From a virus (lineage: Duplodnaviria; Caudoviricetes): 64,000 nt of DNA. The position numbers and the translations under genes are program-made. The DNA is taken from the IMG/VR virus record IMGVR_UViG_3300032277_002183, positions 147-64,146 of that record. One strand, written 5' to 3'. Below are positions 1-64,000 of the stretch, one piece after another; positions within the stretch are counted from its first letter, which is position 1, and each line of letters starts with the position of its first letter. Below the pieces are notes generated by a model that was not told the origin of the DNA, did not search any database, and saw only the letters and a list, made by a program, of their open reading frames with translations.

Positions 1-804
1 CAGTTCATCTCGGTGGGAGGAGGAAGTATGGGTGCAGGTTTTCTGGGAGCTAAATACAATCCGTTCATGGTAAATAGCGATGGTAGAATTAGAAATCTAA
101 ACATGAAAATAGACGAGAGATTTTACCAAAGAGCTTACGCTTTAGATGCTATTGAAAATAACTTTATAAACCAGAGAAGAGGGTCATTAGCAAAAGAACA
201 TCAGGCGATCCTTAAAGAGACATTTAATGTTCTAACAAGCTCCCAAATGGATGCACTTAAAGTGGCTAGTGAGCCTGACAATATAAAAGAAAGATATGGA
301 AACAATAACTTTGGAAAGGGGTGCTTGATGGCACGACGTTTAGTCGAAGCAGGAGTACCATTCATTGAAGTTAATCTAGGTGGTTGGGATAATCATCAGA
401 ACATTTTCCCTACGTTAAGAGACACGAAACTGCCCATGTTAGATCAAGGCATGAGCGCGCTGTATGAAGACTTAGAGCAGCGTGGGTTATTACAAGACAC
501 AGCGATTATTTGGATGGGTGAGTTCAGTAGGACTCCTCGTATCAATGGTAATGCTGGCCGTGACCATTGGGCACGAAGCTGGAGCGTTGTTGTTGGTGGA
601 GCTGGAATGAATGGTGGCATAGCCATTGGCGAAACAAACTCAGATGGTACTCGTGTGGAAACTGAACCATATACATCTCAGGATGTTATGGCTTCCGTAT
701 GCAAAGCACTTGGTATCTCTTTGGGTACTACGTTTACTAGCAACAGTGGTAGACCTATGAAGATCGCTAACTCCGGTAAGGTTATAACCGAACTGTTTAG
801 TTAA
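1..804 (+). CDS. DUF1501 family protein (C-terminal part; 5' end lies outside the window)
   Basis: Frame is open from base 1 (QFISVGGGS...). Motifs GCLMARRLVEAGVPFIEV, GGWDNH, GEFSRTPRIN and GRDHW are typical of DUF1501 proteins. Confidence 0.85.
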   Translation, partial: QFISVGGGSMGAGFLGAKYNPFMVNSDGRIRNLNMKIDERFYQRAYALDAIENNFINQRRGSLAKEHQAILKETFNVLTSSQMDALKVASEPDNIKERYGNNNFGKGCLMARRLVEAGVPFIEVNLGGWDNHQNIFPTLRDTKLPMLDQGMSALYEDLEQRGLLQDTAIIWMGEFSRTPRINGNAGRDHWARSWSVVVGGAGMNGGIAIGETNSDGTRVETEPYTSQDVMASVCKALGISLGTTFTSNSGRPMKIANSGKVITELFS

Positions 805-808
805 TATA

Positions 809-1105
809 ATGAAATTCTACAAGAACGCAGTTTACGTGCTTTTTTCTCTATCTTTGTTGAATTTAGCGGGCTCTTTCTATATGTATAGACATATAATGAA
901 TAGGAGCAATATAATAGAGGTTAAGGTTCCTATAGAAGAAGACCTGAGAGAATTACCTTTACACGCGAGACTCAGAGATTCACAGATAATGCAAGCAATA
1001 CTTATGACTCACCACCAATTAGGCATACACAAACCCGGCTCACAGCCGATGTGTCCAATGTGTCAAGATTCAGAAATTAAAACTATAACAGTAGAGAGCA
1101 ATTAA
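809..1105 (+). CDS. hypothetical membrane-anchored protein with HH-x-H/CxxC motif
   Basis: N-terminal hydrophobic helix, C-terminal THHQLGIH...CPMC; stop overlaps the phoH start (TAATG). Confidence 0.7.
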   Translation: MKFYKNAVYVLFSLSLLNLAGSFYMYRHIMNRSNIIEVKVPIEEDLRELPLHARLRDSQIMQAILMTHHQLGIHKPGSQPMCPMCQDSEIKTITVESN

Positions 1106-1803
1106 TGGCAAGACAAGCAAAAAAACCAAAAACAACAAGACAAAGAAGAAAGATACTACGGCCTAAAACACGCAACCAAGAAACATACATGCAGAGTATA
1201 AACAAGTCTGATGTCACTTTTTGTTCTGGGCCTGCTGGATCTGGTAAAACAAGTGTTTCTGTAGGAATGGCTTGTGAATATTTAATTGAAAAGAAAGTAG
1301 ACAAGATTATTATTACAAGACCGGTGGTTGAATCTGGCAGGGGTTTGGGACATCTTCCGGGAACTCTGGTTGAAAAAATAAATCCATACCTAATACCTAT
1401 ATTAGAAGAGATGAATCATTATCTCACTAGAAATACCGTTGAGACTTACAGAAATAGAAATATTATTGAGTTATGTCCTTTAGAATATATGAGAGGGCGA
1501 AACTTTCATAATTGTTTTATGATCTTAGACGAAGCGCAAAACGCTACGTTTGAACAAATCAAAATGTTTATTACTAGAATTGGAAAGGATTCCAAAGCTG
1601 TGATAAATGGAGACCTAAGACAGTCCGACTTAGGCAAACATCAAGGCGGTCTTAAGACATGCATGGATAAACTCGTTGAGGTTTCTGGTGTTGGTGTTTG
1701 TAAATTGGATTATAGCGATATTGTGCGTAGCGGTATTGTGTCCAAAATTCTAATGACACTAAACAAAGAAGAAGATGAAAATGAACCAGTCAAATATTTT
1801 TAG
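1105..1803 (+). CDS. phoH: PhoH-like ATPase
   Basis: GPAGSGKT Walker A, IIITRPVVE, LGHLPG, YMRGR, ILDEAQN, GDLRQSD, DIVRS. Confidence 0.95.
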   Translation: MARQAKKPKTTRQRRKILRPKTRNQETYMQSINKSDVTFCSGPAGSGKTSVSVGMACEYLIEKKVDKIIITRPVVESGRGLGHLPGTLVEKINPYLIPILEEMNHYLTRNTVETYRNRNIIELCPLEYMRGRNFHNCFMILDEAQNATFEQIKMFITRIGKDSKAVINGDLRQSDLGKHQGGLKTCMDKLVEVSGVGVCKLDYSDIVRSGIVSKILMTLNKEEDENEPVKYF

Positions 1804-2098
1804 AGGGATCTTTTTGGCGGCTATTTTAATAATAGGTGTTAGATCTGAGTACAATAATGCACAAATAAACCAAAGACTTAGCATCTTAGAAGAAGGAATT
1901 TATCAGGGGCATACGATACAAACTGATACAGCTATGAAGTTTGAAACATTCTTACAGGCTCTTTCTGACGAGCTACCTGTAGAGGTAGAAGCGTATGCGA
2001 CAGAAGCCGCAACAAAAGTAGCTAGAGAAGTTACAATAAGCACTCTCCAAGAATTTGCTGAAAATTTCCAAAAAGTGGATGTCAAACTTGATAAGTAG
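1775..2098 (+). CDS. hypothetical protein with N-terminal TM/signal segment
   Basis: Hydrophobic N-terminus IFRGIFLAAILIIGV; overlaps the phoH end. Confidence 0.6.
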   Translation: MKMNQSNIFRGIFLAAILIIGVRSEYNNAQINQRLSILEEGIYQGHTIQTDTAMKFETFLQALSDELPVEVEAYATEAATKVAREVTISTLQEFAENFQKVDVKLDK

Positions 2099-2135
2099 AT
2101 CTATAATATTGATAGACTATTTATAGGAGTTTTAA

Positions 2136-2477
2136 ATGCCAACTTACGATTACGAGTGCAGCGAGTGCGGGTACTACAAAGAAGTTTTTCAAAAGTTTTC
2201 CGAGAAACCTCTTGTTAGGTGTCCAGAATGCAAGAAGCACAAGTTTAGAAGAGTTATCTTAAATGCTCCCCACATCTCAGTAAAAGGGGAGCCTACCACT
2301 ATTAAACATCTAGCCGACAGAAATACCCAAAAATTAGGTAATTATGAACTGCAAGACAAGATGCAAGCTGACAACATGGACAAGGTCAAAAAAGACCGAG
2401 AAGTCAATCAACGAAGAAACAAAATAAATAAGATGTCAACTGCACAAAAAATGAAGTTTATAGAAAAGGGCGAGTGA
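2136..2477 (+). CDS. FmdB-family zinc-ribbon protein
   Basis: MPTYDYECSECG...CPEC...RRVI pattern; AGGAG RBS upstream. Confidence 0.85.
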   Translation: MPTYDYECSECGYYKEVFQKFSEKPLVRCPECKKHKFRRVILNAPHISVKGEPTTIKHLADRNTQKLGNYELQDKMQADNMDKVKKDREVNQRRNKINKMSTAQKMKFIEKGE

Positions 2478-2695
2478 TGACTGATAGAGCTAATTTACCG
2501 CACAAAGCAATTATTCATATCGGAATAGCAGTTCACGAAGTTTTGAAAAATGGTGATCTAGATCCAATCCCAGCAAGCGAGGAAGAGCTTTCTAGATATG
2601 ATCTTGGAAGACACGCTAAGATGTGTATTAATGGCTTTGACAGGGCCGACTGTATTAAAAAAATTAAAGAGCTACTGGAGAAATTAGATGGCTAG
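2474..2695 (+). CDS. hypothetical protein
   Basis: Overlapping start/stop coupling with both neighbours. Confidence 0.65.
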   Translation: MMTDRANLPHKAIIHIGIAVHEVLKNGDLDPIPASEEELSRYDLGRHAKMCINGFDRADCIKKIKELLEKLDG

Positions 2696-3020
2696 AGGAG
2701 AAAGAGAAGACATCTCACATTTAAACTTGCCTAAAGTTCCCGAAAAAGTAACTACATTTATCGGAGCCAAAGGAAGTGAAGTTAAAGAGCGAGATGCCTT
2801 CGTCAAGATTGTAGAAAATGGTGAATTCAACACCTACTATATTAAATATGGTCGAGGCGATTTGTTTGATCCTTATGGAGCAGACAAGAATATGCACAAT
2901 AGACCATACTTTGACTTTAGAAAAGTTAAAGAAGACGTGTATGCTTACTATTTAGAATATTTAACAAAGAGAGATAGAATCTTTTTGACTCGCGCAAGAA
3001 GATCTTTAATGGAGGATTAA
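2688..3020 (+). CDS. hypothetical phage protein
   Basis: GGAG RBS, coupled ORF, 110 aa. Confidence 0.7.
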   Translation: MARGEREDISHLNLPKVPEKVTTFIGAKGSEVKERDAFVKIVENGEFNTYYIKYGRGDLFDPYGADKNMHNRPYFDFRKVKEDVYAYYLEYLTKRDRIFLTRARRSLMED

Positions 3021-3021
3021 A

Positions 3022-3420
3022 ATGACTAAAAAGGGCCCGCTTTCTAAAAGCGAAAAACAGTATATCGAGGACAATCAAGGATTAGCTGCTGATGAAATCG
3101 CAGAAGAGCTTGACAGATCCGAAAAGTCTGTTAGTAAACATCTAGCAAAGCTAGCTGAGCAACAGGCACTGGATGACTCTGACAAAAAAGAGCCAGCAGT
3201 TTCCGCTGCTATTACAGGTACAAAGAAAGATGATAGTGATGAAGAACCAGCACTTCCAAAGGCTGGCGAGCTCATGGCAAGAAATGACCGCTACGGCGCT
3301 GTAACAATGACAGAACAAGCATCGGCAGCTGGAGACATCAGTAAGCCAGACAGGTTGGCAGAAAAAGTTAACATAGCACCTCGACACAGAGGTTCGATCC
3401 ACAAAATTAAAGGAGACTGA
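3022..3420 (+). CDS. hypothetical protein, possible N-terminal HTH
   Basis: GGAGG RBS; LAADEIAEELDRSEKSVSKHL resembles a helix-turn-helix. Confidence 0.65.
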   Translation: MTKKGPLSKSEKQYIEDNQGLAADEIAEELDRSEKSVSKHLAKLAEQQALDDSDKKEPAVSAAITGTKKDDSDEEPALPKAGELMARNDRYGAVTMTEQASAAGDISKPDRLAEKVNIAPRHRGSIHKIKGD

Positions 3421-3421
3421 T

Positions 3422-3928
3422 ATGATTTGTACTGTTCGAGATGAGCATATCCGTAAGCTAATTATGGAAGACATTTCTATGACTTGGAAATGTACATTGG
3501 ATGATGGTACTATCGTATGGGGCGACTATGAGCGTCCGGGAGTACAGGAAAGTCCGTGGCTTAGATTACAAAGGTTTTGTGAAGAAAACGGTAGGTGTGT
3601 TGCAAAGGCGCAAGTAATTGTAATAGGCGCACCTGAAGAAGTTGTTTTTGAGAACGAGAATGGCCTTGATGGTTTTTTCATTGCTAGAGGTTTCTCAAAA
3701 GATATTGATATGGTGACTGGAGACGGCCCGTCTTACCAGCACATGACATTTGGTTTATTAAATGATAATCTTGAGGTAGAAGTAAAGAAATATAGTTGGC
3801 CAGAGTGCGAATTTATGGAATTTACTCAGAAAAGAATGATGACTCAGGAAAATCTTTCTTGGATGATTTGGAAAAATGACGAAACAAAGAAGCAAAACGA
3901 GCAGGTTCAAGTCACCCTCAACGGGTGA
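3422..3928 (+). CDS. hypothetical phage protein
   Basis: AGGAG RBS, 168-aa ORF in the operon. Confidence 0.7.
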   Translation: MICTVRDEHIRKLIMEDISMTWKCTLDDGTIVWGDYERPGVQESPWLRLQRFCEENGRCVAKAQVIVIGAPEEVVFENENGLDGFFIARGFSKDIDMVTGDGPSYQHMTFGLLNDNLEVEVKKYSWPECEFMEFTQKRMMTQENLSWMIWKNDETKKQNEQVQVTLNG

Positions 3929-4331
3929 TTATTGCACCATAGGCCAATACATCGCTGAAATATTGGTTCAACGTAAGGCAGAGAGAGAAAATGAAGGCTC
4001 TTTGTCTTATAAGTTCTGGAATAAAACTCGCAAGAAACAGTATCAGCGTCAAGTTCAAGAGGTCTATAAAATGATTTCTGAATTTGGCGAGGATGCTGTC
4101 TATGACTACATCATAAATAAAAATAAGCGAGTATACTCTGCACTTCCTAAGTGGGTAAAAGATGAGGTTAAAAATCATAAAAAGCTTTTAGACTCAAGGC
4201 CAAAACCTAAGCAGCGTGATATTATTGAAGTAGAAGAAGATAACATAAATGTAAAACCTATGAAGAGCTTTGGCAACAAATCTCTTTTTTCTAAATTGAG
4301 GAACTCAAATGGCAAAGACAAAAAAGACTGA
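3876..4331 (+). CDS. hypothetical basic protein
   Basis: Lys/Arg-rich 151-aa ORF overlapping both neighbours. Confidence 0.65.
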   Translation: MTKQRSKTSRFKSPSTGDYCTIGQYIAEILVQRKAERENEGSLSYKFWNKTRKKQYQRQVQEVYKMISEFGEDAVYDYIINKNKRVYSALPKWVKDEVKNHKKLLDSRPKPKQRDIIEVEEDNINVKPMKSFGNKSLFSKLRNSNGKDKKD

Positions 4332-5373
4332 TCCGGCGTTTGTAAAAGAGATCATAAAGAAATACGGTAATGTAATTTCGACTGGTAACCAAGTCCTAGA
4401 GCGCAGAAAAGATTATAAGGTTGTCACTGTCAGTCCCGCTATTGACTTAGCATTAGGTGGAGGGATTAAAGAAGGCTCTTGGGTAATACTAACTGGAGAT
4501 CCTAAGTGTGGCAAGACAACAACAGCATTACAAATCGCCGCTAACTGCCAGAAAGAAGGCCGTCCAATCATCTATCTTGACGCTGAAGGTAGACTGAAAG
4601 AAATGAATCTACTTGGTGTGGATGGCTTAGACAAAGAGAAAATGCAAATCATTCATTCTGAAGATGAACCTTTGAGTGCAGAAACCTTTTTAGATATTGC
4701 TGTTAAATTGGTTAGTGCAAAAGAAAATGAGGGTTGTGTTTGCATCATCGACTCAACATCTGCTCTCATGCCAGCAAAAGAATTAGATGGGGATATGACT
4801 CCCGGACGAGCAGGACTACCAAAAGTTTTATCTGTTTTCTGCAAAAAGATGGGTCAGATTGTACCAAATCAAAAAGCAACTCTGATTATCATCACACACT
4901 TTATTGCTAATACTTCAGGCTACGGAGCATCAAGAATGCCAGACTGCGGTAGAAAAATTCAATACCAAGCCGACACAAGAATGGAAGTAAAATCTATCAC
5001 CCCTTGGGTTCAAAGCGATCGTCAGGTTGGCCAAGCCGTGAACTGGAAAGTTGTTTGTTCATCTATGGGATCGCCCGGAACAGAATGTCAAAGTTGGATC
5101 AAATATGGTCACGGTGTAGATAAAATTCAAGAGCTTATTATGCTTGGATTGGATTTAGGTCTTATCGGTAAAGCTGGAGCTTGGTTCACATGCGAATTTA
5201 TGGTCGCCTTTACAGATGTCGTAAAGAAGATAAAGCCAGAAACAAATATAGAAGACACTGAGGCGGTTTTGAAAGCGGTTAAATTTCAAGGCCAAGAGAG
5301 ACTGTATAATTTTCTACTAGCCAATGAAGAAGTGTTTAATATATTAGAAAAAGAAATCAAGGGAATGCTTTAA
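4309..5373 (+). CDS. RecA/UvsX-like recombinase
   Basis: SPAIDLALGGGI, Walker A GDPKCGKTT, YLDAE, IIDSTSAL Walker B, GRKIQYQADTRMEV. Confidence 0.9.
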   Translation: MAKTKKTDPAFVKEIIKKYGNVISTGNQVLERRKDYKVVTVSPAIDLALGGGIKEGSWVILTGDPKCGKTTTALQIAANCQKEGRPIIYLDAEGRLKEMNLLGVDGLDKEKMQIIHSEDEPLSAETFLDIAVKLVSAKENEGCVCIIDSTSALMPAKELDGDMTPGRAGLPKVLSVFCKKMGQIVPNQKATLIIITHFIANTSGYGASRMPDCGRKIQYQADTRMEVKSITPWVQSDRQVGQAVNWKVVCSSMGSPGTECQSWIKYGHGVDKIQELIMLGLDLGLIGKAGAWFTCEFMVAFTDVVKKIKPETNIEDTEAVLKAVKFQGQERLYNFLLANEEVFNILEKEIKGML

Positions 5374-6326: not shown

Positions 6327-6720
6327 TGGTAAAATTTGGAAATGGAACCCCTCTAGAAGTCAAGCTTCAGTAAGTGAAAAAAACAGGTCTTCTTTACATA
6401 AAAAAGCTAGATTACTGTTGAAAGAGATATTTCCATATGATAGAATATTAGAAGAGGTTACACTTCCCGGAACCAAGACGGGTTCTAGGAGATCTCTATT
6501 GTACGCAGACCTTTATGTCCCAAATAGAAGTCTAATTGTAGAAGTGCATGGAGAACAGCACTTTAAATTCAATTCATTTTTTCATAAAGATAAGATGGCG
6601 TTTTTCAAGGCCCAAGCTAGAGACAAAGATAAAAGAGCTTGGTGCGACTTAAATGATATGACGCTCATTGAGTTAAATTATAATGAGTCTGAGGATGAAT
6701 GGAGAACTAAATTTGACTAA
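6307..6720 (+). CDS. Vsr/DUF559-like endonuclease
   Basis: LYADLYVPNRSLIVEVHGEQH...RDKDK; no DNA-binding N-terminal extension. Confidence 0.7.
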   Translation: MNVSGLDGKIWKWNPSRSQASVSEKNRSSLHKKARLLLKEIFPYDRILEEVTLPGTKTGSRRSLLYADLYVPNRSLIVEVHGEQHFKFNSFFHKDKMAFFKAQARDKDKRAWCDLNDMTLIELNYNESEDEWRTKFD

Positions 6721-8045: not shown

Positions 8046-8047
8046 AT

Positions 8048-8395: not shown

Positions 8396-8493
8396 TGAAA
8401 AAGACATTAACTTTAGAATGGAAAGATTTTCTACTTGGTGTATTTTTAAGCGCTACCATTTGTATGGGGTTCTATATCTTTAGAGGAATGTAA
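8395..8493 (+). CDS. small membrane peptide (32 aa; below the ORF-track cutoff)
   Basis: TAATG overlap with the upstream gene; MKKTLTLEWKDFLLGVFLSATICMGFYIFRGM; its stop directly abuts the next ATG. Confidence 0.6.
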   Translation: MKKTLTLEWKDFLLGVFLSATICMGFYIFRGM

Positions 8494-11934: not shown

Positions 11935-11935
11935 T

Positions 11936-12949
11936 ATGTTAGTTACATACATAAGAAGTTCTAGTTATAATAATTTTGAGTACTGCCAGATGCAATATTT
12001 TATGACCTATGTTTTAGGTCATCAAACCACTTCAGGCAAGAAAGCTCAATTGGGAACGGTTGTACATAAGGTTATGGAAGTTTTGGCTGGATGTAAGAAA
12101 TTGCACCAAGACGGTCAAGAGCTATTGCTTAAGGATGACGCTATCGGAGAGGTCGAGTTTACCAAGCGTAGACTCGGAACAAAGAAATTTGTAAACGAAA
12201 TCCTTAAGCGTAGCTACGACCATTACACTGTACCATGCTCTCATCACTATACTAATGCAGACTATAAATTCTGTGATAAGACGACATGGGAAGCCCTAAC
12301 TTATGATGACGGCAACTTTGACCCAAGAAAACGTAACATTGTTGCGGCTGAGCCTCAATTTGATATTGCCATCGAAGAAGACTGGGCTAAATATGAATAT
12401 GATATGCCAGACGGAACAAAGGCAGAAGGCCAACTTGCTATCAAGGGTACGATTGACTTGGTAACAGAAGTATCTGATGGAGTAATTGAAGTTATCGACT
12501 GGAAGACAGGACGCCGACTTAACTGGGCTACCGGAGAGGAGAAGACTTATGAAAAGCTATGTAAAGATCCGCAGTTAATGTTGTATCACTATGCAATTTC
12601 TAAGCTTTTCCCTCAATATGAAGACGCAATTATGTCGATATATTTCATTAGAGATGGTGGCCCGTTTAGTATCTGTTTTGAAGAAAGTGACAGACAGAAG
12701 TTTTTGGGAATGCTAAAGGATAGATTTGAGGAAATCAAGAAGACGACTCGTCCAAGAATGCTATCTAGAAATCAGGCTCACTGGAAATGTACTAAGTTAT
12801 GTGACTTCTGTAAGACGGATTGGCCCGGAACTGATGAAAGCATGTGCCGACATGTCAGTAATCACTTAGACCAATTTGGTATGCTAGACACAATACAAAA
12901 CTGCACAAGAGAAGATTTCGATGTTGGATATTATGAGGCTCCCGGATAA
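11936..12949 (+). CDS. Cas4/AddB-like PD-(D/E)XK exonuclease with probable Fe-S cluster
   Basis: SSY...YCQMQY, G-x-x-VH, KGTIDLV, IDWKTG, QLMLY, C-terminal CTKLCDFC. Confidence 0.85.
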   Translation: MLVTYIRSSSYNNFEYCQMQYFMTYVLGHQTTSGKKAQLGTVVHKVMEVLAGCKKLHQDGQELLLKDDAIGEVEFTKRRLGTKKFVNEILKRSYDHYTVPCSHHYTNADYKFCDKTTWEALTYDDGNFDPRKRNIVAAEPQFDIAIEEDWAKYEYDMPDGTKAEGQLAIKGTIDLVTEVSDGVIEVIDWKTGRRLNWATGEEKTYEKLCKDPQLMLYHYAISKLFPQYEDAIMSIYFIRDGGPFSICFEESDRQKFLGMLKDRFEEIKKTTRPRMLSRNQAHWKCTKLCDFCKTDWPGTDESMCRHVSNHLDQFGMLDTIQNCTREDFDVGYYEAPG

Positions 12950-13464: not shown

Positions 13465-15019
13465 AACTCACTTTAGTCTGCAAAGAGGCTACTCAAAGCC
13501 GGAACAACTTGTAGCCAAGTGTAAGAAGTTTGGCTACAAATCTTGTGCGATCACAGATATAAATACTATTTCTGGTGCTGTCGCCTTTTATAAAACTTGC
13601 AAGAAGAATGATATCAAACCTATTATTGGTTGCACATTTGAGTTTGAAAGTCATAAGCCAATGACACTATTAGCCAAGAACAAACAGGGTTGGTTTGATC
13701 TTATTGACTTAGTTTCTAAGAAAAACTCTTACAGTGATGACGTTGTCAACAAGCTTTTAAAGTCTCATAGCGAGAATCTAATATGTATTGACGATCTAAA
13801 GCAGCAGCCTAGTTATTATGCTGATACAAAAGATGCAGAATTACATCGAATACTTCTTTGCTCTGGAATGAAAACCACAATGGGCAAAGTTAAAGATAGA
13901 CTCAAGCAAGATGGTTTCAAAAAGTTAAAAGGCTTTTTTAGTTCAGACAAGTATTATATGATCTCGCCAGAAGAGGCGTCAAATCAATACACTGAGGATG
14001 TTATAACAAAAGCGTTTGAGATTTCTGAACAATGTGAGGAGTATGATATCTTAGGCAAGCCAATGCTTCCTAAGTTTGACTGTCCTGACGACTACACTGA
14101 AGATGAATATTTGAAACAGTTATGTAGGGACGGGTGGCGCAGTCTACTTGCTGAAACAGGAAAAATAGATAATGAAGACAGGAAACAAGAGTATCTTGAT
14201 AGAATCAAGAATGAAATGGATGTTATTTTTGATGCAGACTTGTCTGGTTATTTTCTAATCGTGCAGGACATTGTAAACCATGTTAGAGAACAGGGCTGGT
14301 TACCGGGCCCCGGAAGAGGTTCTGCTGCAGGATGTTTGATTTCTTATCTGATTGGGATTACAGAAATTGATCCCATTGAATATGATTTGATTTTTGAAAG
14401 ATTTTATAATGCAGGGCGTAACACTGAAGATCATGTATCCTTACCTGATATTGATGTTGACGTTCCAGCAGAAAAGCGAGATGAGGTTATTGGATATATT
14501 AAATCAAAGTATGGAGAAGATAATGTATCTCAGATGTTAACCTTTAATAAGTTACAGGGTCGAGCGGCATTAAAAGAAATAATGCGTATCACAAATGCTG
14601 TTTCTTTCGCTGAGATGAATGATATAACAAAGAATATTCCCAATGAAGCAGATGTCTCCGACCTAATTGAAGAAAGCGGTGAAAAATCACTAATAAAATG
14701 GACACTTACTTATCAGCCTAGCGATCTAGGAAAATGGTGTAAGGTTAATCAAGAAGGAGATTTAATCGGGCCTTTGGCAGAAATTTTTGAGCAAGCTATT
14801 GACATCGAGGGTACAATTAAATCACAGGGCAAACATGCGGCGGGAGTTATTATATCGGCTAATAAATTGAGAGAGGTTTGTCCTATGGTTCAAGATAGGC
14901 ACAAGAACCTTGTGGCTGGATTTGAAATGGGAGACCTTGAAGATCAAGGACATGTTAAATTTGATATTTTAGGCATCGACCTACTAAGTAAAATTATGGA
15001 GATTAAAGATGAGCACTAA
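13439..15019 (+). CDS. dnaE: DNA polymerase III alpha, N-terminal half (degenerate PHP + palm/thumb)
   Basis: AITD, KPIIG, YFLIVQDIV, GPGRGSAAGCLISYLIGIT, FERF, PDIDVD, GKHAAGVII, KFDILG; ends at a stop shortly after the third catalytic Asp. Confidence 0.92.
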   Translation: MNWIPLNNKTHFSLQRGYSKPEQLVAKCKKFGYKSCAITDINTISGAVAFYKTCKKNDIKPIIGCTFEFESHKPMTLLAKNKQGWFDLIDLVSKKNSYSDDVVNKLLKSHSENLICIDDLKQQPSYYADTKDAELHRILLCSGMKTTMGKVKDRLKQDGFKKLKGFFSSDKYYMISPEEASNQYTEDVITKAFEISEQCEEYDILGKPMLPKFDCPDDYTEDEYLKQLCRDGWRSLLAETGKIDNEDRKQEYLDRIKNEMDVIFDADLSGYFLIVQDIVNHVREQGWLPGPGRGSAAGCLISYLIGITEIDPIEYDLIFERFYNAGRNTEDHVSLPDIDVDVPAEKRDEVIGYIKSKYGEDNVSQMLTFNKLQGRAALKEIMRITNAVSFAEMNDITKNIPNEADVSDLIEESGEKSLIKWTLTYQPSDLGKWCKVNQEGDLIGPLAEIFEQAIDIEGTIKSQGKHAAGVIISANKLREVCPMVQDRHKNLVAGFEMGDLEDQGHVKFDILGIDLLSKIMEIKDEH

Positions 15020-37469: not shown

Positions 37470-37935
37470 AATCGCAGCAATTTTAGATAGTCTTGGCCCA
37501 ACACAAAACGCTTTCTATTTAATTAAGGAATTCAATAAGCTGGGCAGCGATGTGAAATATGCACCTATATGTTTCTATAACAATCTATCGCCACCCGTAG
37601 TAAAGCCGCTCTTTTCGTGCATGAATATTTCATACTACGCTACTTATTATGGATATACTATAGCTAGCACTATAGAGACTGCAAACCTTATGCTTAAGAC
37701 ACACAACAGTTCTGAAAAGATATTCTATGTTTGGGATTTGGAATGGCTTAGAAACCCCATTGCTTTTGATAGTGTAGTTGATATCATGAGAGATGAAAGA
37801 ATTACACTAGTAGCTAGAAGCGAATATCACAGAGACTTAATAGAAAAATATGCCAACAAGAAAGTAGCGGGCATAGTTGATAACTGGAACATGAAACAAT
37901 TTGAGGAGATATTATGGACGCCAGCAAAATCATAG
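37462..37935 (+). CDS. hypothetical protein, GT-B half-domain-like
   Basis: FYVWDLEW motif; last gene of the glycan block. Confidence 0.45.
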   Translation: MIRIAAILDSLGPTQNAFYLIKEFNKLGSDVKYAPICFYNNLSPPVVKPLFSCMNISYYATYYGYTIASTIETANLMLKTHNSSEKIFYVWDLEWLRNPIAFDSVVDIMRDERITLVARSEYHRDLIEKYANKKVAGIVDNWNMKQFEEILWTPAKS

Positions 37936-38684
37936 AACTATATATAGAAGATAAACTCAGCACAAAAGTTATAGCTGAAAGATATAATACCTATCCAAAC
38001 AAGATCAGAAGAATCTTGATTTCTAATGGTATCGAAATTCGTAGCAAAAGTGATGCCCAGAAACAGGCACTTAAAAGTGGAAGCGCGACACATCCAACAA
38101 AAGGCAAAAAGAGAAGTGAAGAGTCGAAAGACAAAATAAGCAACTCTTTGGAGAAGCACTGGAATAATATGTCCGAGGAGGAAAGATCGCGTCGTAGCAC
38201 AATAGCTAAAGAGAACTGGGAGAAGTTAAGCGAAGTAGAGCGCAAAGAAATACAAAGAAAAGGCAGTGACGCCTTAAGGGAAACGATAAGAGATGGCTCT
38301 AAGGCAGAGAAGAGCCTCTTCAGCAATCTTAGTAAAATAGGGTACGATGTGGAGCTCCATAAAAAAGGGCTAATAACTGGAGAAAAGTACGAAATGGACT
38401 TGTATTTACCAGACATCAGTACTATTATAGAAGTAGATGGGCCACAACATTTTATGCCCATATTTGGAGAAAAGCATCTGCGAGAATATGTCAAGCACGA
38501 TGCAATTAAAAACGGTATCATGATAAAGAATGGATACTGTATTATTAGAATTAAGTATTTGTGCCCCAGCTTTACTAGGGGTGTTGAAAATAGACTTTGG
38601 GAAATGGTTGAGCCAGTAGTAAAGCAAATCTCAACTAAGTTTCCTCCGAAGTCGAAGAGGCTTATAGAACTGGAGATCTCTTAA
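37914..38684 (+). CDS. free-standing homing endonuclease: HTH/NUMOD3-like + Vsr-like (EDxHD) nuclease
   Basis: HPTKGKKRSEESKDKIS (NUMOD3-like); MDL...IIEVDGPQHF...HD. Confidence 0.75.
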   Translation: MDASKIIELYIEDKLSTKVIAERYNTYPNKIRRILISNGIEIRSKSDAQKQALKSGSATHPTKGKKRSEESKDKISNSLEKHWNNMSEEERSRRSTIAKENWEKLSEVERKEIQRKGSDALRETIRDGSKAEKSLFSNLSKIGYDVELHKKGLITGEKYEMDLYLPDISTIIEVDGPQHFMPIFGEKHLREYVKHDAIKNGIMIKNGYCIIRIKYLCPSFTRGVENRLWEMVEPVVKQISTKFPPKSKRLIELEIS

Positions 38685-44392: not shown

Positions 44393-44408
44393 TAACCATA
44401 ACTCCTTA

Positions 44409-48113: not shown

Positions 48114-48114
48114 A

Positions 48115-49587: not shown

Positions 49588-49598
49588 TTATAAACTCC

Positions 49599-58151: not shown

Positions 58152-58160
58152 TTTTTTTCC

Positions 58161-61100
58161 TTAGTCTGATCGCTGATTTAATTTTCTGGTGAACTCTTCT
58201 AGTGCAAGATCAATTTTATCTCCAGCCTGTGAAACAACCGAGTCACCAATGACTTTAACAATATTATTAATTGCTTCCTGTGAGAAACCCGGAATATTCA
58301 AGGTTCCATCAACTTGTATTGTATGTGATATTGAAAGATCCGAGAACATAACAGCAATATTACTTAGCATTCCTGCTAGACTATCAAAGACAGAAAGAGA
58401 TTTTGCAACCGCATCCATCATGCCTGAACCCATACCAGACATCATACCACCATTTTGCCTATATTGCACTCCCCCAACAGATCCACCTTTAGCAAATCCG
58501 GGAATTTTACCTCTGTTAACAGAATTCATAAATCCAGTGCCATGTTTCTTAACAGCAGAAGGACTCATCACAAACTCACCCGGCGTCAACATAGCAGGAA
58601 CAGAATCCACAGAACCACCTCTAGCAAACCCTGCAACGGGTTGGCCACCAAAGAACTGATTCATTCTAAAATATCCTTGTCTGTGAGAATTTGCTACAGC
58701 TTGATGTTGTGACTGGAGTAGCATTTTTCTGAATTTTGACGGCAAAAAGAAAGACGAAATCTGCACTTCTTCATTCATCTGCTTTAGCATTTCAAATGGT
58801 TTTTCTACAAGACCCTGCAAATGCGCTGGAAGCATCCCTTTGGAACCATCAGCAAAACCGGACCCAAAATTGGAGATACCAACAGGAAGAGGATTGCCGT
58901 TCGTATCGAAGAGACTGCCGCCAACTATAGAAAGTTTGCCCTCTCTCATTCGCTTCACAGCATAATCACGGGGAACAGTAGGTATGCGAGAAGTTATCCC
59001 AAACAAAGCTTGTTGCTTCATTAAGAAATCACTTCCGGGGCGAGTAGCTCGCATGTCGAACCGCCTCTTCATCACTTGTAGATCTACACGTCTTCCAAGC
59101 GAAGTGTTTTCAATTACGGACCCATCTTGTCCGGCGGGTGCAGGGGCGGCCCCGCTAGGTCTTCCTATAACTCTAGCGTCTCTAAAATCAAGAGTTTTAG
59201 CTAACAGTGTATCCATAGCTTCATTGACGTACATATTTCTAAATGTTGGATAGAATTTGTCCACGGCTCCGGCACCAAATGCTCCCTCAAATACACTCCT
59301 TTCTAGACCACCTGCTCCCCCTCCCACACGCGTATCGAGTGGCTCACCTAAGAATGTGCTACCATAAATCAAGTTATCTTTCATAATCTTGGAAACAGTT
59401 TTAGGATCAAGCCTATCCAACAGTCCTAGTATTCCACCCCCTGATTGTGGATCTAAAGAGTTTTTGGCGAAGGATAGCCCCATCAAACCAAGCATGCCTC
59501 CAATATCAGCGGGAAATGTATTGAACATACCTGTACCCATCAGCATTTCGGCTGTTCTTTTTTTACCTAGTGCTGCTGCCCAACTTAGGTCACCCTTTCT
59601 TCTAGGCTTGAGGAGCTTGACTCCCGGTAACATAGGTACGTTCTGCTCAATCAAAGAATCAAGCCATGTACCAAGATCCTCTATCCCCGTATATGGAGCA
59701 TTAGCCATAGCATAATCTAAATTCTTATAGAATTGTTCTGCCCTCCAATCAGGATCATTTACGCTCTGTCTCCCCTGCCTATCAAGTGCGTTTCTAGCTC
59801 CGGCAGACGTCCTATTAGCCATAGGATCACCAGTACCTGTTCTAGGTCTCTCTGGGCCAGTGGACCCGTTTTGTCTATAGACAACACTAGTGTTACCGTT
59901 GTTTATAGAGGAAAGTGTTGAGGTTCCTATCTTATCGACAGCGCTTTTTCTTATAACAAATTCGCCCGGAGTTAGCATTGCTGGAACCGTATCAGTTCCT
60001 CTTGGCTGGAATACAGATCCGCCACTTGCAAACCCACGAATCAGTCCCCCTCTTGCGTTTCTGGCGGGTTGCAGATTTTCGAGAGCAGTGACCGCACCTT
60101 TAAGTTCAGTTACCATTGTGCTTAAATTTTCATTACTCTTCTTGGCCAATTGTCTAATTTCTTCTTGTTTAGCTATTTCTCTTTCTCTGATTAGAGCCTG
60201 CGCGTCTTGCTCTCTCTGACTTATGGCCTGAAGTTCAGCAATGAGCTGATCTTCTTTGTTTGTTCTCTCAAAGATAGCCTTAACCAATTCAGGAGGCGCG
60301 CCCTGTCTTCCGCCTGTCATTCTCCTAAAGTTCGTGTCTAGCTGTCTGACTTGCAGCTGCTTTTTAATCATCTCTCCGGTCATACCGGGAATAAGTTCAA
60401 CGTCTTTGAATTGATCCAGTAAGTTTGCAACAGCGCCCCGCATCTTATCTGGAATAGCTTCTACATTTCCAGTCATCAGAACTCTTTGAAGTGCCATGAA
60501 CGATTGATCAATTTGTCTTCGCCCATCATTAGTAGCAAAGGTGTAGTTCTCAATAGACTTCTGCATGGCATTACGTTTAGACTTTTCTTTATCTATTTCA
60601 GTCATAACTGCGGCGGCGAGATCTGCCTGATTCGCTAATAATTTCAGCGCCTGCTCAGCATTTGCCATTTCTTGATTGAGTAGCTTTTGTTTGTTTATCT
60701 GCTCTTGTTCTCCTCCTAAATCGCCCTTCGCCGCCTTACGACGGGCTTTCCGTACAGCGTCCGCCATCGCTTCTTCTAACATAGCAAAATGATCCCTTGC
60801 TCCAAAGTCAATATCGTCACCCCCCATGCCTACTTTCGCATTCCTTCCTTCAAAAAATGCGCCTCCGGGATTAAACCCGCGAAAAGCTCCTGCGGGAGCC
60901 ATAGGAATATTTTGACCAAGTGCAGCCATAACTGCTAATCCTTGCTCTGCTATAGCATCCTCAATTGATAAGTCTATATCCATAGCATCTCTAAGTCGCG
61001 CATTGCCTCTTTTTATAACATCAACCATATCCATGTTTGCTTGACGGATAGTCTGAGCTTGTTTTCTAACCGCATCTCCAAACATTGCGATTGAATTAAC

Positions 61101-63998
61101 TTGCGCTTGTTGAGTTTTAGCTAATTTTCCTGCGGCATCTATAACTTCATCAACATTATGGCCGAGTATATCCATAAGCTCAGAAATATCTGAAGCTTCA
61201 AATCCATCTTCAAATAAGTTCTTTAGAGCCTCTTTCGCTTCTGCTGTAAGACTGGACGCATCAACACCGAGCATGGCTACAGCCTCTTTCATTCTTTCAA
61301 AAGGCTCTAGATCCATCAGTTCGCCGGGATCTCCTATGATACCCTCAAAATTAGTTCGCATTGCCTCATTTTCTCTGAGCCTTCCAGCTGTAGCTCCAAA
61401 CCCCATATCTGTTAAAGCAGATGCTCCTTCGACATTGAAACCATCTTTAAGTGTTGCTATAAGATCGCCAGATGTTACTTTTACATTTTGAATAGCTCCA
61501 GTAATCTGACCAAGGGCGGCTTTTGCTGCATCAGCAGCATGACCAAATTGAATGAATTGTACATTTACTTCCTGCAAAGCTTTGGCTCTAGCTCTTTCAG
61601 CTTGCGCGAGCTGGACTTCTAATATGGCTAACTTTCGTGCGGATTCAGCTCTTTTCTCTGCGGCATGCAACATCTCTTGGTCAGCATTTCTTCGAGCTTC
61701 CACAGTCTCTCTCGTTGCTTTTCTTGCAGCCTTTGCAGCTGCGTCTGCTTCCATGCCCGAAGCAATGGCTTCAGCAAAAAAGCCTCTATATAGTGTTGAC
61801 TGTAGCAATTGTAGCTGTTTTTCGTATTCTGTTGAAACGTCTGCAAAGCCTTTGCCTTCTTCCATCGCGGTCTGTACCAGAGTTTGCAAATTGCTTCTAA
61901 TAGTATCGGCCACCTGAAAAGCCACTTTGCCTTGCTCTGCAGTAACGTCGTTTAATTGCTGAAGCGCATGTTGATACTGTTCATTAGTATATACGCCAGT
62001 AGCGAGCCCATTCTCAAGCTCATCGTATGCGGCTCTAGCGCTTTTGGCAGCATTAGCATTAGAAATAAATTGCTCAGCAATTCTAGTTTGTTCTTTAATT
62101 AAAGCGTCGCCTTCTAGACCTTTTTCTGCAAGTATTCGAGTTTCCCTACTGAACTCGCCTATTGTTTTTGCTGCGGCTACAGTTGCGGTTGCTAATGCTT
62201 GAATCGTCTTACGAGTTGGTTCAGATTCGTTTCTTAATTTTTGCAGTTCTTCTGCAATCGCCATTTCCTGCTGACGCATACGATCCATTGCACCTTGAGC
62301 CGAACCGGCTCCAGTTCCAGCCCCCATAGCAGAAGTGAAGCCCGTAGCATTATCTCTGGCCTGATCACGCAGCTGCTGATCATTAATATTAAACGCACCC
62401 AACAAATTTTGCTGTTGCTCTCTCCTATCATCAAGAGCATTAATACCGCCCTCTCTTATCCTCATGATAAATTCGCTAAAGCTTTTTGCCATCTTCTTAC
62501 GTTCCTGCTCAAGCTGAGCAGTGTAAGCCATGTGCGCCCCAACAGCCAGACCAATTGCACCACCAAGAATACCAAGAGCTGCAGGAGCGGCAGCAGCAGC
62601 TTTTTCCAACGCAGTATTAATAGATTTTCCCGTTGTATTCGCGTTAGTAGCAATAGTATTGGTTACAATAGAAGCAAAAAAGCCGCCAAGAGCTGATCCA
62701 GTCTGAGCACCTATCATAGCCATGATACCGCCGAGCATTACAAACTGCTGAACAAGCTGTTTAGTTTCATCAGCAAGATTTGTAAACTCAATAACCATAG
62801 GAGCCATAAACGCAGTCATCATTGCAGCATTTCCTACCGCCTGCAATCTACCGCCCTGATTCATACCAACAGGGCCGCCCTTATTAAACTTGGCAACACC
62901 AGTTTTGTTCATACTATTCAAATTAGAATAACCAATTGCCTGTGCAGAAGATTTGTTTATTACATACTCACCGGGAGTTAACATGGCGGGAACACTGTCC
63001 ACCGAACCACCTTTGTTGTACTGCGCGAGTTGAACCATTCCTTGTCTAAGCGCAGATCTACCTGATCTGGCTATGTAGTTGTATAGTTTTTTAGGTATAC
63101 CCTCTTGAGAAGCTGCTTGGTCTTTGCTTCTTTTGACTTCTGCTACCTGAGCATTAGATATCTGGGAATTAAACATTTTCTTAAGACGTTTTCTATTTCC
63201 TGCCATAGCGCTACGACCCAAATCAAATGATGCTCCACCACCAGTAGTCATGGCACCAGTTAACGCTCCTATAACGCCCTCATATAAAAAACCTTGAAAG
63301 GTTCGTGCCGCTGTATCGTCTGCCGCAGAAGTAGCCTTGGCTTTTTCTAAGTTATTTTCGTCCACATTAAGAGCAGGAGGAAGATCTAGCTGTCCACTGA
63401 TTTTGGCAATTGCCGATTGAACCCCGTCACTTATTGCACTCCTTGAAACCTGATCCATTATTGTGCCAAATTCACTACTTTTAAGCATTCCAAGTTGAGG
63501 TGAAGATACTTTATAAGGCGTAGATGGAGGAAGTACGCTAAAATTATACATATGCGCCCTTGCTTGTTTTTCATCTCCTCCGAAATACTTATCAGCAATT
63601 AGCTTTCTTTCTTTTCCGGGTAGAACTATACCCCGCAATTTATCGGCTCTTTCGATACCATATGGTTTTGTAGGATTATATTGGCCGTCGTAACCCATAG
63701 GGTTCATACTTACCGCAGCTACTGTGTTAGGCATAGCCCTAAAGCCTAACGTCCCCGTAGGAGACATCCCAGCCAAAGCCCCTAGTTTACCTCTATTAAA
63801 GCCAGCAACTTTAGGCTGTTTTCCTCCAACAGTATACCCGTTCATCGCCGCTAATCTTTGAGCGCCAATACTGTTCACAGAAGATTTTTTAATGACAAAC
63901 TCACCGGGTGTAAGCATGGCAGGAACTGTATCTCTATTACCTTGACCCGGAACAAAACCACCTTTATTGAATCCATGAATCTGACCGCCCTGATTTTT
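58161..63998 (-). CDS. tape-measure-like protein (>1945 aa; 5' end lies beyond the window)
   Basis: Frame stays open to the window edge (KNQGGQIHGFNKGG...). Long Ala/Gln/Glu helical core, hydrophobic TM-like segments and four F-x-x-GG...D[ST]VPAMLTPGE[FY]V modules. Confidence 0.85.
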   Translation of the reverse strand, partial: KNQGGQIHGFNKGGFVPGQGNRDTVPAMLTPGEFVIKKSSVNSIGAQRLAAMNGYTVGGKQPKVAGFNRGKLGALAGMSPTGTLGFRAMPNTVAAVSMNPMGYDGQYNPTKPYGIERADKLRGIVLPGKERKLIADKYFGGDEKQARAHMYNFSVLPPSTPYKVSSPQLGMLKSSEFGTIMDQVSRSAISDGVQSAIAKISGQLDLPPALNVDENNLEKAKATSAADDTAARTFQGFLYEGVIGALTGAMTTGGGASFDLGRSAMAGNRKRLKKMFNSQISNAQVAEVKRSKDQAASQEGIPKKLYNYIARSGRSALRQGMVQLAQYNKGGSVDSVPAMLTPGEYVINKSSAQAIGYSNLNSMNKTGVAKFNKGGPVGMNQGGRLQAVGNAAMMTAFMAPMVIEFTNLADETKQLVQQFVMLGGIMAMIGAQTGSALGGFFASIVTNTIATNANTTGKSINTALEKAAAAAPAALGILGGAIGLAVGAHMAYTAQLEQERKKMAKSFSEFIMRIREGGINALDDRREQQQNLLGAFNINDQQLRDQARDNATGFTSAMGAGTGAGSAQGAMDRMRQQEMAIAEELQKLRNESEPTRKTIQALATATVAAAKTIGEFSRETRILAEKGLEGDALIKEQTRIAEQFISNANAAKSARAAYDELENGLATGVYTNEQYQHALQQLNDVTAEQGKVAFQVADTIRSNLQTLVQTAMEEGKGFADVSTEYEKQLQLLQSTLYRGFFAEAIASGMEADAAAKAARKATRETVEARRNADQEMLHAAEKRAESARKLAILEVQLAQAERARAKALQEVNVQFIQFGHAADAAKAALGQITGAIQNVKVTSGDLIATLKDGFNVEGASALTDMGFGATAGRLRENEAMRTNFEGIIGDPGELMDLEPFERMKEAVAMLGVDASSLTAEAKEALKNLFEDGFEASDISELMDILGHNVDEVIDAAGKLAKTQQAQVNSIAMFGDAVRKQAQTIRQANMDMVDVIKRGNARLRDAMDIDLSIEDAIAEQGLAVMAALGQNIPMAPAGAFRGFNPGGAFFEGRNAKVGMGGDDIDFGARDHFAMLEEAMADAVRKARRKAAKGDLGGEQEQINKQKLLNQEMANAEQALKLLANQADLAAAVMTEIDKEKSKRNAMQKSIENYTFATNDGRRQIDQSFMALQRVLMTGNVEAIPDKMRGAVANLLDQFKDVELIPGMTGEMIKKQLQVRQLDTNFRRMTGGRQGAPPELVKAIFERTNKEDQLIAELQAISQREQDAQALIREREIAKQEEIRQLAKKSNENLSTMVTELKGAVTALENLQPARNARGGLIRGFASGGSVFQPRGTDTVPAMLTPGEFVIRKSAVDKIGTSTLSSINNGNTSVVYRQNGSTGPERPRTGTGDPMANRTSAGARNALDRQGRQSVNDPDWRAEQFYKNLDYAMANAPYTGIEDLGTWLDSLIEQNVPMLPGVKLLKPRRKGDLSWAAALGKKRTAEMLMGTGMFNTFPADIGGMLGLMGLSFAKNSLDPQSGGGILGLLDRLDPKTVSKIMKDNLIYGSTFLGEPLDTRVGGGAGGLERSVFEGAFGAGAVDKFYPTFRNMYVNEAMDTLLAKTLDFRDARVIGRPSGAAPAPAGQDGSVIENTSLGRRVDLQVMKRRFDMRATRPGSDFLMKQQALFGITSRIPTVPRDYAVKRMREGKLSIVGGSLFDTNGNPLPVGISNFGSGFADGSKGMLPAHLQGLVEKPFEMLKQMNEEVQISSFFLPSKFRKMLLQSQHQAVANSHRQGYFRMNQFFGGQPVAGFARGGSVDSVPAMLTPGEFVMSPSAVKKHGTGFMNSVNRGKIPGFAKGGSVGGVQYRQNGGMMSGMGSGMMDAVAKSLSVFDSLAGMLSNIAVMFSDLSISHTIQVDGTLNIPGFSQEAINNIVKVIGDSVVSQAGDKIDLALEEFTRKLNQRSD

Positions 63999-64000
63999 AC

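What the first reader, a model, noticed from the sequence alone, without database searches (positions are those of the whole stretch)
1..64000. Apparently complete absence of CCWGG (CCAGG/CCTGG) across 64 kb
Seen: a line-by-line manual read found no CCAGG or CCTGG, while CCCGG/CCGGG occur dozens of times. Every Pro-Gly I checked is coded CCS-GGN even though the genome is AT-rich: phoH 1357 ccg gga, recombinase 4801 ccc gga, dnaE 14303 ccg ggc ccc gga, and all four TMP 'TPGE' copies. At an eye-estimated 37-38% GC about 45-50 sites would be expected. Known: CCWGG is the EcoRII/Dcm/BstNI-type site. Inference: strong, long-term selection by a host CCWGG restriction system or by a Dcm-like methylation penalty. 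It also suggests the phage cytosines are not globally shielded.
Basis: partly seen in the sequence, partly recalled or inferred. Interest (0 to 1): 0.72.

Follow-up and report, generated by a model that had tools for sequence, protein, structure and literature searches.

The report
CCWGG-free marine planctomycete phage clade
This fragment of an uncultured marine phage, and nearly all of its relatives, have removed every CCWGG site by silent codon changes; this is a very clean example of the long-known trick of dodging host restriction enzymes, and a candidate enzyme was found in the probable planctomycete host genus.

Summary
CCWGG occurs 0 times in the window and in the whole 64,146-bp record, against about 70 expected by three independent nulls. 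All 51 Pro-Gly pairs are spelled CCC/CCG-GGN.

The purge is shared by the clade. It is 0/158 in a 94%-complete 145-kb relative, 0/120 and 0/107 in two others, and 0 in almost all loci down to about 42-50% DnaE identity. Three or four nested lineages have relaxed it. A neutral-descent simulation predicts 39 new sites between the window and its 80%-identical relative, and none is seen, so selection is ongoing.

The only other (near-)absent words are 6-bp palindromes, which is the signature of type IIP restriction avoidance. No DNA methyltransferase or dCMP-hydroxymethylase-family gene was found in the phage or its relatives.

Phage DUF1501 genes are 78-86% identical to genes of one Pirellulaceae genus. 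The bacterial copies carry 3-7 CCWGG and the phage copies none. One species of that genus has an MvaI-family endonuclease with an adjacent N4/N6 methyltransferase. No C5 (Dcm-type) methylase was found in that genus.

Verdict: classical restriction-site avoidance. It is a new member of a known kind and of modest interest. The scan has already seen CCWGG purges on other DNA (e.g. e1-5734518).

The parts
1..64000 (.). Whole window: zero CCWGG sites on either strand (about 70 expected). Also (near-)absent are the 6-bp palindromes GGATCC, TTCGAA, ATCGAT, TCCGGA, CCCGGG, GTCGAC and GTGCAC.
13..804 (+). DUF1501 gene fragment, 78-80% identical in protein to a gene of one Pirellulaceae genus. The bacterial copies hold 3-4 CCWGG and the window copy none. 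The changed positions are nt 34-39 (CCA GGA -> GCA GGT), 40-48 (TTC CTG G -> TTT CTG G), 52-57 (GCC TGG -> AAA TAC) and 442-450 (GAC CAG G -> GAT CAA G).
1357..1362 (+). Pro-Gly in phoH spelled CCG GGA (example of the dodge)
4801..4806 (+). Pro-Gly in recA-like gene spelled CCC GGA
14303..14314 (+). Two consecutive Pro-Gly in dnaE N-half spelled CCG GGC CCC GGA
63903..63908 (-). Pro-Gly of TPGE copy 1 in the 1945-aa protein, CCC GGT
62970..62975 (-). Pro-Gly of TPGE copy 2, CCC GGT
59964..59969 (-). Pro-Gly of TPGE copy 3, CCG GGC
58578..58583 (-). Pro-Gly of TPGE copy 4, CCG GGT

Best explanation
The window is about 40% of the genome of an uncultured, apparently virulent, roughly 150-kb tailed marine phage. 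Its lineage has eliminated every CCWGG site and keeps eliminating new ones, because unmethylated CCWGG in incoming phage DNA is cut by type II restriction enzymes circulating in its host population.

Shown: the purge itself; its maintenance by purifying selection; its achievement mostly by synonymous codon choice; its restriction to palindromic words; and the lack of recognisable DNA-modification genes in the phage.

Inferred: the hosts are marine Pirellulaceae (Planctomycetota). The selecting enzyme is an orthodox single-site cutter of the MvaI type (CC^WGG with an N4-cytosine methyltransferase) rather than EcoRII/Dcm.

From my own knowledge, EcoRII needs two sites, so sparse sites escape it. 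A purge down to exactly zero over 145 kb therefore fits an enzyme for which a single site is harmful.
For: (1) CCWGG is 0 against about 70 expected by three nulls.

(2) The purge is clade-wide. It is 0/158, 0/120 and 0/107 in records of 145, 110 and 116 kb. It is 0 in all 42 loci with DnaE-N identity of 57% or more and in most at 42-55%. The tree shows a supported 42-row clade that is CCWGG-free, with nested exceptions L049 10/14, L057 2/14, L044 13/15 and L045 10/31, and non-depleted outgroups.

(3) Selection is ongoing. Simulated neutral descendants of the window, given the observed substitution spectrum, gain 39 +/- 6 CCWGG over the 46 kb aligned to G001 (20% divergence). The observed number is 0. 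The test against G002 gives 26 expected and 0 observed.

(4) Palindrome signature. In G001, 57 palindromic and 2002 non-palindromic 6-mers are expected at 6 or more sites. Of these, 8 palindromes and 0 non-palindromes are at 10% or less of expectation. In the window, 13 of 64 6-bp palindromes are at zero, against about 1 in shuffles. Sub-lineages add their own purges, GCGC or GATC.

(5) No self-protection genes were found: no PF00145, PF01555, PF02086 or PF00303.

(6) Host link. Phage DUF1501 paralogues are 86% and 78-80% identical to single genes of one 13-species Pirellulaceae genus, where the next-best paralogue is 44%.

(7) Natural experiment. Those bacterial genes carry 6-7 and 3-4 CCWGG and the phage copies 0. 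Each site is changed synonymously or by an amino-acid change.

(8) Candidate enzyme.
- MvaI_BcnI-family endonucleases occur in 14/401 Planctomycetota and 4/301 Pirellulaceae genomes.
- G879, in the candidate host genus, has the endonuclease overlapping an N6_N4 methyltransferase gene.
- These proteins match R.MvaI (E about 1e-15) better than R.BcnI.
- Three of the REase-bearing genomes are depleted in CCWGG but not CCSGG: G922 0.15 vs 1.0, G327 0.31 vs 0.91, G879 0.71 vs 0.89. The other REase-bearing genomes sampled lie between 0.67 and 1.0.
- Nineteen other Pirellulales genomes pool to 0.97.
Against: - The host is inferred only from captured genes. No CRISPR spacer or prophage match was found in the roughly 1.6 Mb of host DNA held.
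- Only 1 of 13 species genomes of the candidate genus carries the MvaI-family R-M. That is thin for a pressure that keeps a deep clade at exactly zero. It requires that such systems are strain-variable or that other CCWGG enzymes exist.
- The specificity of the planctomycete enzymes is inferred, not measured; the family also contains CCSGG cutters.
- The candidate host genomes do not avoid the phage's other purged 6-mers, and palindrome O/E values are uncorrelated.
- G006, which lacks a detected endonuclease, is also mildly depleted (0.78).
- The record is a fragment, so a modification gene could lie in the missing 60%. The 94%-complete relative shows none of those searched.
Confidence: 0.8

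Rival explanations
1. Methylation-dependent pressure. Hosts carry an orphan Dcm-like CCWGG methylase, and phage DNA marked at CCWGG is then cut by type IV (methyl-dependent) nucleases in the next host. Alternatively, methylated sites simply decay by 5mC deamination.
For: CCWGG is the Dcm site. Marine metaepigenomes report methylated CCWGG in viral MAGs (PMC8919816, PMC9516812). CTTGG/CCAAG is slightly enriched (1.26).
Against: - No PF00145 C5 methylase was found in any of the 13 genomes of the candidate host genus.
- The other deamination product, CTAGG/CCTAG, is depleted (0.73).
- The main compensation is CCSGG (2.1x), meaning synonymous Pro codon choice rather than C->T decay.
- Mutation bias cannot hold a count at exactly 0/158 or explain the parallel purge of A/T-centred and C-free palindromes such as TTCGAA.
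Confidence: 0.07
2. The phage itself makes or delivers a CCWGG-cutting nuclease, for example to destroy host DNA, and must therefore keep its own genome free of the site. Candidates are the variable insert in the 1945-aa virion protein or the NUMOD3 protein.
For: The window also has a PDDEXK_1 nuclease (11936-12949) and a NUMOD3 protein (37914-38684).
Against: - The giant proteins have no Pfam hit, and the insert has no PDB sequence hit.
- The insert is not conserved in G001, which is equally CCWGG-free.
- PDDEXK_1 lies beside the replication and nucleotide-metabolism genes (primase, dNMP kinase, DnaE); from my own knowledge this is the usual phage RecB/Cas4-type exonuclease context.
- One nuclease cannot explain eight or more different purged palindromes whose set changes between sub-lineages.
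Confidence: 0.03
3. Artefact or composition effect: assembly or library bias, or low frequencies of the sub-words, produce the zero.
For: None found.
Against: - The sub-words CCAG, CAGG, CCTG and CTGG are common.
- Three nulls agree.
- The same zero is seen in dozens of contigs from many different metagenomes.
- The codon-level compensation is systematic.
Confidence: 0.01

Closest known systems
Restriction-site (short palindrome) avoidance in virulent dsDNA phages, as surveyed by Rusinov et al. 2018 (PMC6286503)
   Same: There is complete elimination of an orthodox type II site, together with several 6-bp palindromes, in an apparently non-temperate dsDNA phage. The survey reports complete or near-complete elimination in about one-tenth of viral genomes.
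   Different: Here the host is uncultured and only inferred. The purge is shown for a whole deep clade of metagenomic phages, with documented relaxations, and with a before/after comparison in captured host genes.
Coliphages T7/T3 and EcoRII (own knowledge: few, widely spaced CCWGG sites make them refractory to the two-site enzyme EcoRII)
   Same: The same recognition word, CCWGG, is under selection in a virulent phage.
   Different: T7 retains a few sites because EcoRII needs two. This clade has exactly zero in up to 145 kb. EcoRII-C was not found in 301 Pirellulales genomes (no positive control). The candidate enzyme is of the MvaI type.
MvaI restriction-modification system (R.MvaI, PDB 2oa9; CC^WGG; own knowledge: its methylase makes N4-methylcytosine)
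   Same: G879, G327 and G469 have an MvaI_BcnI-family endonuclease next to an N6_N4 methyltransferase gene. The endonucleases match R.MvaI better than R.BcnI. Two of these genomes, G327 and G879, are depleted in CCWGG and not CCSGG; G469 is not depleted.
   Different: Identity to R.MvaI is low (E about 1e-15) and specificity is untested. The system is present in only 1 of 13 species genomes of the candidate host genus.
Earlier scan finding e1-5734518: total CCWGG purge in a marine T4-like cyanophage
   Same: The same word is purged by the same CCC/CCG-GGN spelling of Pro-Gly in a marine phage.
   Different: It is an unrelated phage lineage and host phylum. I did not check that finding.

Membership tests
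Restriction-site avoidance by a phage | The site is significantly under-represented against composition- and codon-corrected expectation | tested here: met
   0 vs 72 (dinucleotide shuffles), 70.4 (Markov, z -10.4) and 68 +/- 6 (synonymous shuffles)
Restriction-site avoidance by a phage | The avoided words are type IIP-like palindromes, and non-palindromes are spared | tested here: met
   In G001, 8 of 57 testable palindromic 6-mers and 0 of 2002 non-palindromic 6-mers are at 10% or less of expectation, plus CCWGG
Restriction-site avoidance by a phage | The purge is maintained by selection rather than inherited by chance | tested here: met
   The neutral-descent simulation predicts 39 +/- 6 new sites and 0 are observed. 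The purge is conserved across a clade down to about 50% DnaE identity, with nested relaxations.
Restriction-site avoidance by a phage | A restriction enzyme of that specificity exists in the host | tested here: inconclusive
   An MvaI-family REase + MTase pair is present in G879 of the candidate host genus. Both host identity and enzyme specificity are inferred, and the system is in only 1/13 species genomes.
Restriction-site avoidance by a phage | DNA carrying the site is restricted in the host and site-free DNA is not | not testable with these tools
   This needs cultures or cloned enzymes.
Dcm/Vsr-type 5mC methylation effect | A C5 cytosine methyltransferase is present in host or phage | tested here: not met
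   PF00145 is absent from the record, from G001-G005 and from all 13 genomes of the candidate genus. The control genomes did register.
Dcm/Vsr-type 5mC methylation effect | Excess of the deamination products CTWGG/CCWAG | tested here: not met
   CTAGG/CCTAG 0.73; CTTGG/CCAAG 1.26
EcoRII-type (type IIE) restriction as the selecting agent | An EcoRII-C domain endonuclease is present in the host group | tested here: inconclusive
   0 of 301 Pirellulales genomes, but the family matched in none of the 14 control genomes either
MvaI/BcnI-family R-M as the selecting agent | REase of the family with an adjacent methyltransferase in the host lineage | tested here: met
   L254:6170-6862(-) is PF15515 (E 1.7e-40), and the overlapping L254:5289-6173(-) is PF01555 (E 3.8e-52). 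The genome shares the 86% DUF1501 orthologue.
MvaI/BcnI-family R-M as the selecting agent | Specificity is CCWGG (MvaI) rather than CCSGG (BcnI) | tested here: inconclusive
   The match to R.MvaI is better than to R.BcnI. Three bearer genomes are depleted in CCWGG and not CCSGG; others are not depleted. There is no biochemical test.
Self-modifying phage (methylated or hypermodified DNA) | The phage encodes a DNA methyltransferase or a pyrimidine-modifying enzyme | tested here: not met
   No PF00145, PF01555 or PF02086 in the record. No PF00145, PF01555 or PF00303 in G001-G005. A dNMP kinase and a dUTPase are present but are not diagnostic.

The most novel reading that the evidence does not exclude
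CCWGG cutting may be the oldest and most pervasive barrier in the marine Pirellulaceae 'pan-immune system'. Part of it may work without a cognate methylase. G922 has an MvaI-like endonuclease sitting alone between housekeeping genes, and its own chromosome is purged of CCWGG (103 observed vs 667 expected). This would be restriction by self-avoidance instead of self-modification. The phage clade's zero count would then be the mirror image of a host-side purge.
Probability: 0.1. Interest if true: 0.55.

Novelty: new member of a known kind. Interest (0 to 1): 0.3.

Why it matters
The mechanism is textbook, so there is no conceptual advance. The practical value has three parts.

1. The case gives a sequence-only fingerprint of the defence landscape of an uncultured host-virus pair: zero CCWGG plus a lineage-specific set of purged palindromes.
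2. It predicts that CCWGG-specific (probably MvaI-type, m4C) R-M systems are common in a marine Pirellulaceae genus. It names a concrete gene pair to clone.
3. The captured DUF1501 genes offer a neat before/after demonstration of how quickly a phage rewrites host DNA to remove restriction sites.

The pattern of shared and lineage-specific purges could also serve as a host-range marker within this phage clade.

Tried and rejected
- A megablast of 12 kb against GenBank phages found nothing. A tblastn with DnaE-N found only relatives at 33% identity or less, with uninformative hosts.
- The first neutral-descent script timed out. It was rewritten and ran.
- The EcoRII-C search in 301 Pirellulales genomes was negative, but no control genome matched the family, so it is weak evidence.
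- I looked for host-side avoidance of the phage's purged 6-mers and for a phage-host correlation of palindrome O/E. There was none (Spearman -0.11 to 0.17).
- A blastn of about 1.6 Mb of candidate-host DNA against four phage records, looking for spacer-like or prophage matches, found only the DUF1501 genes and two short hits of 24 and 37 bp.
The 12 small loci obtained instead give CCWGG 0.75 vs CCSGG 0.86, which is too little sequence to decide.
- The idea that the variable insert of the 1945-aa protein is a CCWGG nuclease was dropped. It has no Pfam or PDB hit and is absent from the equally CCWGG-free G001. I did not fold it.
- G922's 'solitary' endonuclease could not be confirmed as solitary. 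Two PF01555 methylases lie elsewhere in that genome.


Full report
**Observation**

CCWGG is absent from the window on both strands and from the full 64,146-bp IMG/VR record, of which the window is bases 147-64146. CCSGG occurs 54 times.

Three nulls agree on about 70 expected sites:
- Dinucleotide-preserving shuffles give 72.3 +/- 8.1.
- The maximal-order Markov model gives 70.4, z = -10.4, the strongest deficit among all 4-6-mers.
- Shuffling synonymous codons within each of 64 ORFs gives 68 +/- 6, never below 50 in 500 trials.

The avoidance is visible in all three reading-frame classes:
- All 51 Pro-Gly pairs use CCC/CCG, although CCA+CCT are 79% of other Pro codons.
- None of 68 Ala/Pro/Ser/Thr-Trp pairs uses an NCC codon.
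- The NNC-CWG-GNN class has 22 expected and 0 observed.

CCSGG is enriched 2.1-fold as the price of the Pro-Gly respelling.

**What the DNA is**

The record is a linear fragment with CheckV completeness of about 40%. It has no near relative among GenBank phages.

The window encodes the following:
- DUF1501, PhoH, RecA and dUTPase
- DnaB, primase, a dNMP kinase and a PDDEXK_1 nuclease
- a split DnaE with an exonuclease between the halves, SSB and a sigma factor
- a long glycan-gene block
- on the minus strand, giant proteins without Pfam hits

A relative, G001, is 144,965 bp and 94% complete. It is about 80% identical in DNA over 46 kb. It supplies the terminase, portal, major head protein and ribonucleotide reductase. 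This is therefore a large tailed phage.

**The purge is a clade trait under continuing selection**

Using DnaE-N as a probe, 67 IMG/VR loci were fetched.
- CCWGG is 0 in every locus with 57% or more identity and in most at 42-55%.
- Whole records give 0/158 (G001), 0/120 (G002) and 0/107 (G003).
- In the DnaE tree, a supported 42-row clade is CCWGG-free except for nested lineages L049 (10/14), L057 (2/14), L044 (13/15) and L045 (10/31). The outgroups are not depleted.
- This reads as an old purge relaxed a few times, presumably after host shifts. L049 and L057 have 32% GC.

I also simulated descendants of the window with the substitution spectrum actually observed against G001 (20% divergence, by codon position). 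They acquire 39 +/- 6 CCWGG sites. The real G001 has none in those columns. The test against G002 gives 26 expected and 0 observed. New sites are therefore being removed by selection.

**Why restriction avoidance**

The words that are (near-)absent besides CCWGG are all 6-bp palindromes: ATCGAT, TTCGAA, GGATCC, TCCGGA, GTCGAC, GGTACC, CTCGAG and CCTAGG in G001.
- In G001, of the 6-mers expected at 6 or more sites, 8 of 57 palindromes and 0 of 2002 non-palindromes are at 10% or less of expectation.
- In the window, 13 of 64 6-bp palindromes are at zero, against about 1 in shuffles.
- Sub-lineages add different purges. GCGC is 0/142 in G003 and 0 in L040, L046 and L048. GATC is 0 in L051, L052, L056 and L061.

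This mosaic is what a changing set of type IIP enzymes would produce. It is the pattern surveyed in PMC6286503.

A mutational (5mC deamination) origin is not supported. CTAGG/CCTAG is depleted (0.73) and CTTGG/CCAAG only mildly enriched (1.26).

No DNA methyltransferase (PF00145, PF01555, PF02086) was found in the record. Neither PF00145, PF01555 nor a thymidylate-synthase/dCMP-hydroxymethylase-family gene (PF00303) was found in G001-G005. The phage therefore seems to rely on having no sites.

**Host and candidate enzyme**

A DUF1501 paralogue of G001 is 85-86% identical to a single gene of Pirellulaceae MAGs. Other planctomycetes follow at 65-77% and Verrucomicrobia at about 60%.
- In G006 that orthologue stands out from 90 other paralogues, of which the next best is 44%.
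- G006 and G879 belong to one GTDB genus of 13 species. Twelve of them have the orthologue at 80-86%.
- The window's own DUF1501 fragment is 78-80% identical to a different gene of the same genus.
- Earlier scan reports on relatives reached the same host inference.

These captured genes give a natural experiment. The bacterial copies carry 6-7 CCWGG (first gene) and 3-4 (second gene). The phage copies carry none. Every site is altered either synonymously (CCT GGG -> CCG GGA, CAG G -> CAA G, TTC CTG G -> TTT CTG G) or by an amino-acid change.

Searching for enzymes gave the following.
- EcoRII-C was not found in 301 Pirellulales genomes, but that search had no positive control.
- MvaI_BcnI-family endonucleases were found in 14/401 Planctomycetota and 4/301 Pirellulaceae genomes.
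- One of these genomes is G879, in the candidate host genus. There the endonuclease gene overlaps an N6_N4 methyltransferase gene.
- The planctomycete proteins match R.MvaI (CC^WGG) better than R.BcnI.

Some REase-bearing genomes are depleted in CCWGG specifically (observed/expected):

| Genome | CCWGG | CCSGG |
|---|---|---|
| G922 | 0.15 | 1.0 |
| G327 | 0.31 | 0.91 |
| G879 | 0.71 | 0.89 |
| 19 other Pirellulales genomes, pooled | 0.97 | not calculated |

The other REase-bearing genomes sampled (G386, G700, G638, G814, G469, G453, G967) range from 0.67 to 1.0.

No C5 methylase was found in the 13 genomes of the genus. This argues against the Dcm version of the story.

**Weak points**

- The host is inferred from gene capture only.
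- Only 1 of 13 species genomes has the MvaI-type system, and its methylase has no orthologue in the others.
- Enzyme specificity is untested.
- The candidate hosts do not avoid the phage's other purged 6-mers.

These gaps fit strain-variable, mobile R-M systems, but that is an assumption.

**Rivals**

- Methylation-dependent restriction or deamination: about 0.07.
- A phage-borne CCWGG nuclease: about 0.03. The proposed insert in the 1945-aa protein has no detectable nuclease similarity and is missing from the equally CCWGG-free G001.
- Artefact: about 0.01.

**Verdict**

The core interpretation, selection by a host CCWGG restriction system, is well supported. The EcoRII/Dcm labelling is not; an MvaI-type system is the better candidate.

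This is a very clean new example of a phenomenon known for decades. The scan has also seen it on other DNA (e.g. e1-5734518, e1-3415497). Interest is modest (0.3).

Noticed in passing
relatives: G003 (L082-L087), L040, L046, L048, L063; L051, L052, L056, L061: Sub-lineages of the same phage clade carry additional total purges on top of CCWGG. GCGC is 0/142 in G003 (and 0 in L040, L046, L048), with 23 6-bp palindromes at zero. GATC is 0/46-79 in L051, L052, L056 and L061. A marine Planctomycetes MAG with m4C GCGC methylation is reported in PMC8919816.
   Followed up: partly
L257:15461-16384 (+) in genome G922 (Pirellulaceae): An MvaI-family endonuclease with a roughly 78-aa N-terminal extension lies between homoserine dehydrogenase and a FabA-like gene, with no adjacent methylase. 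The genome itself is strongly CCWGG-depleted (103 vs 667 expected over 460 kb; CCSGG 837/834). Two PF01555 methylases lie elsewhere, so it may not be truly solitary.
   Followed up: partly
genome G327 (Planctomycetota, 460 kb sampled: L219-L221, L227-L246): This bacterial chromosome shows extreme word avoidance: ACGT 34/921, CTAG 5/436, GTCGAC 1/85, ATCGAT 6/97, GAGCTC 13/120 and CCWGG 150/479. It also carries an MvaI-family REase + MTase pair (L198:1462-3443).
   Followed up: partly
window 1-64000: There are compensation effects of the purge. CCSGG is 2.1-fold over-represented, and CCCGGA/TCCGGG 2-fold (34 vs 16.6), because Pro-Gly must be spelled CCS-GGN while TCCGGA and CCCGGG are themselves avoided. 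GGWCC is also halved (24 vs 55).
   Followed up: yes
G001 100-110 kb (L073:4565-9551 and the L072/L073 boundary); window 13-804: The phage carries about four DUF1501 paralogues. At least two are each closest (78-86% aa) to a different single gene of the same Pirellulaceae genus, which suggests separate captures. Earlier scan reports describe the same cassette.
   Followed up: partly
window 63030-63998 (-): The segment between the first two TPGE modules of the 1945-aa protein is variable. It is only 34% identical in G002 and has no detectable counterpart in G001, where only the flanking module matches. It has no Pfam or PDB sequence hit.
   Followed up: partly
L057 (IMGVR_UViG_3300020417_001760) versus its sister L049: L057 has 2 CCWGG against 14 expected, while its sister L049 has 10/14. 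This is an intermediate state that could be a purge in progress or in decay. Both have 32% GC, unlike the rest of the clade (37-42%).
   Followed up: no
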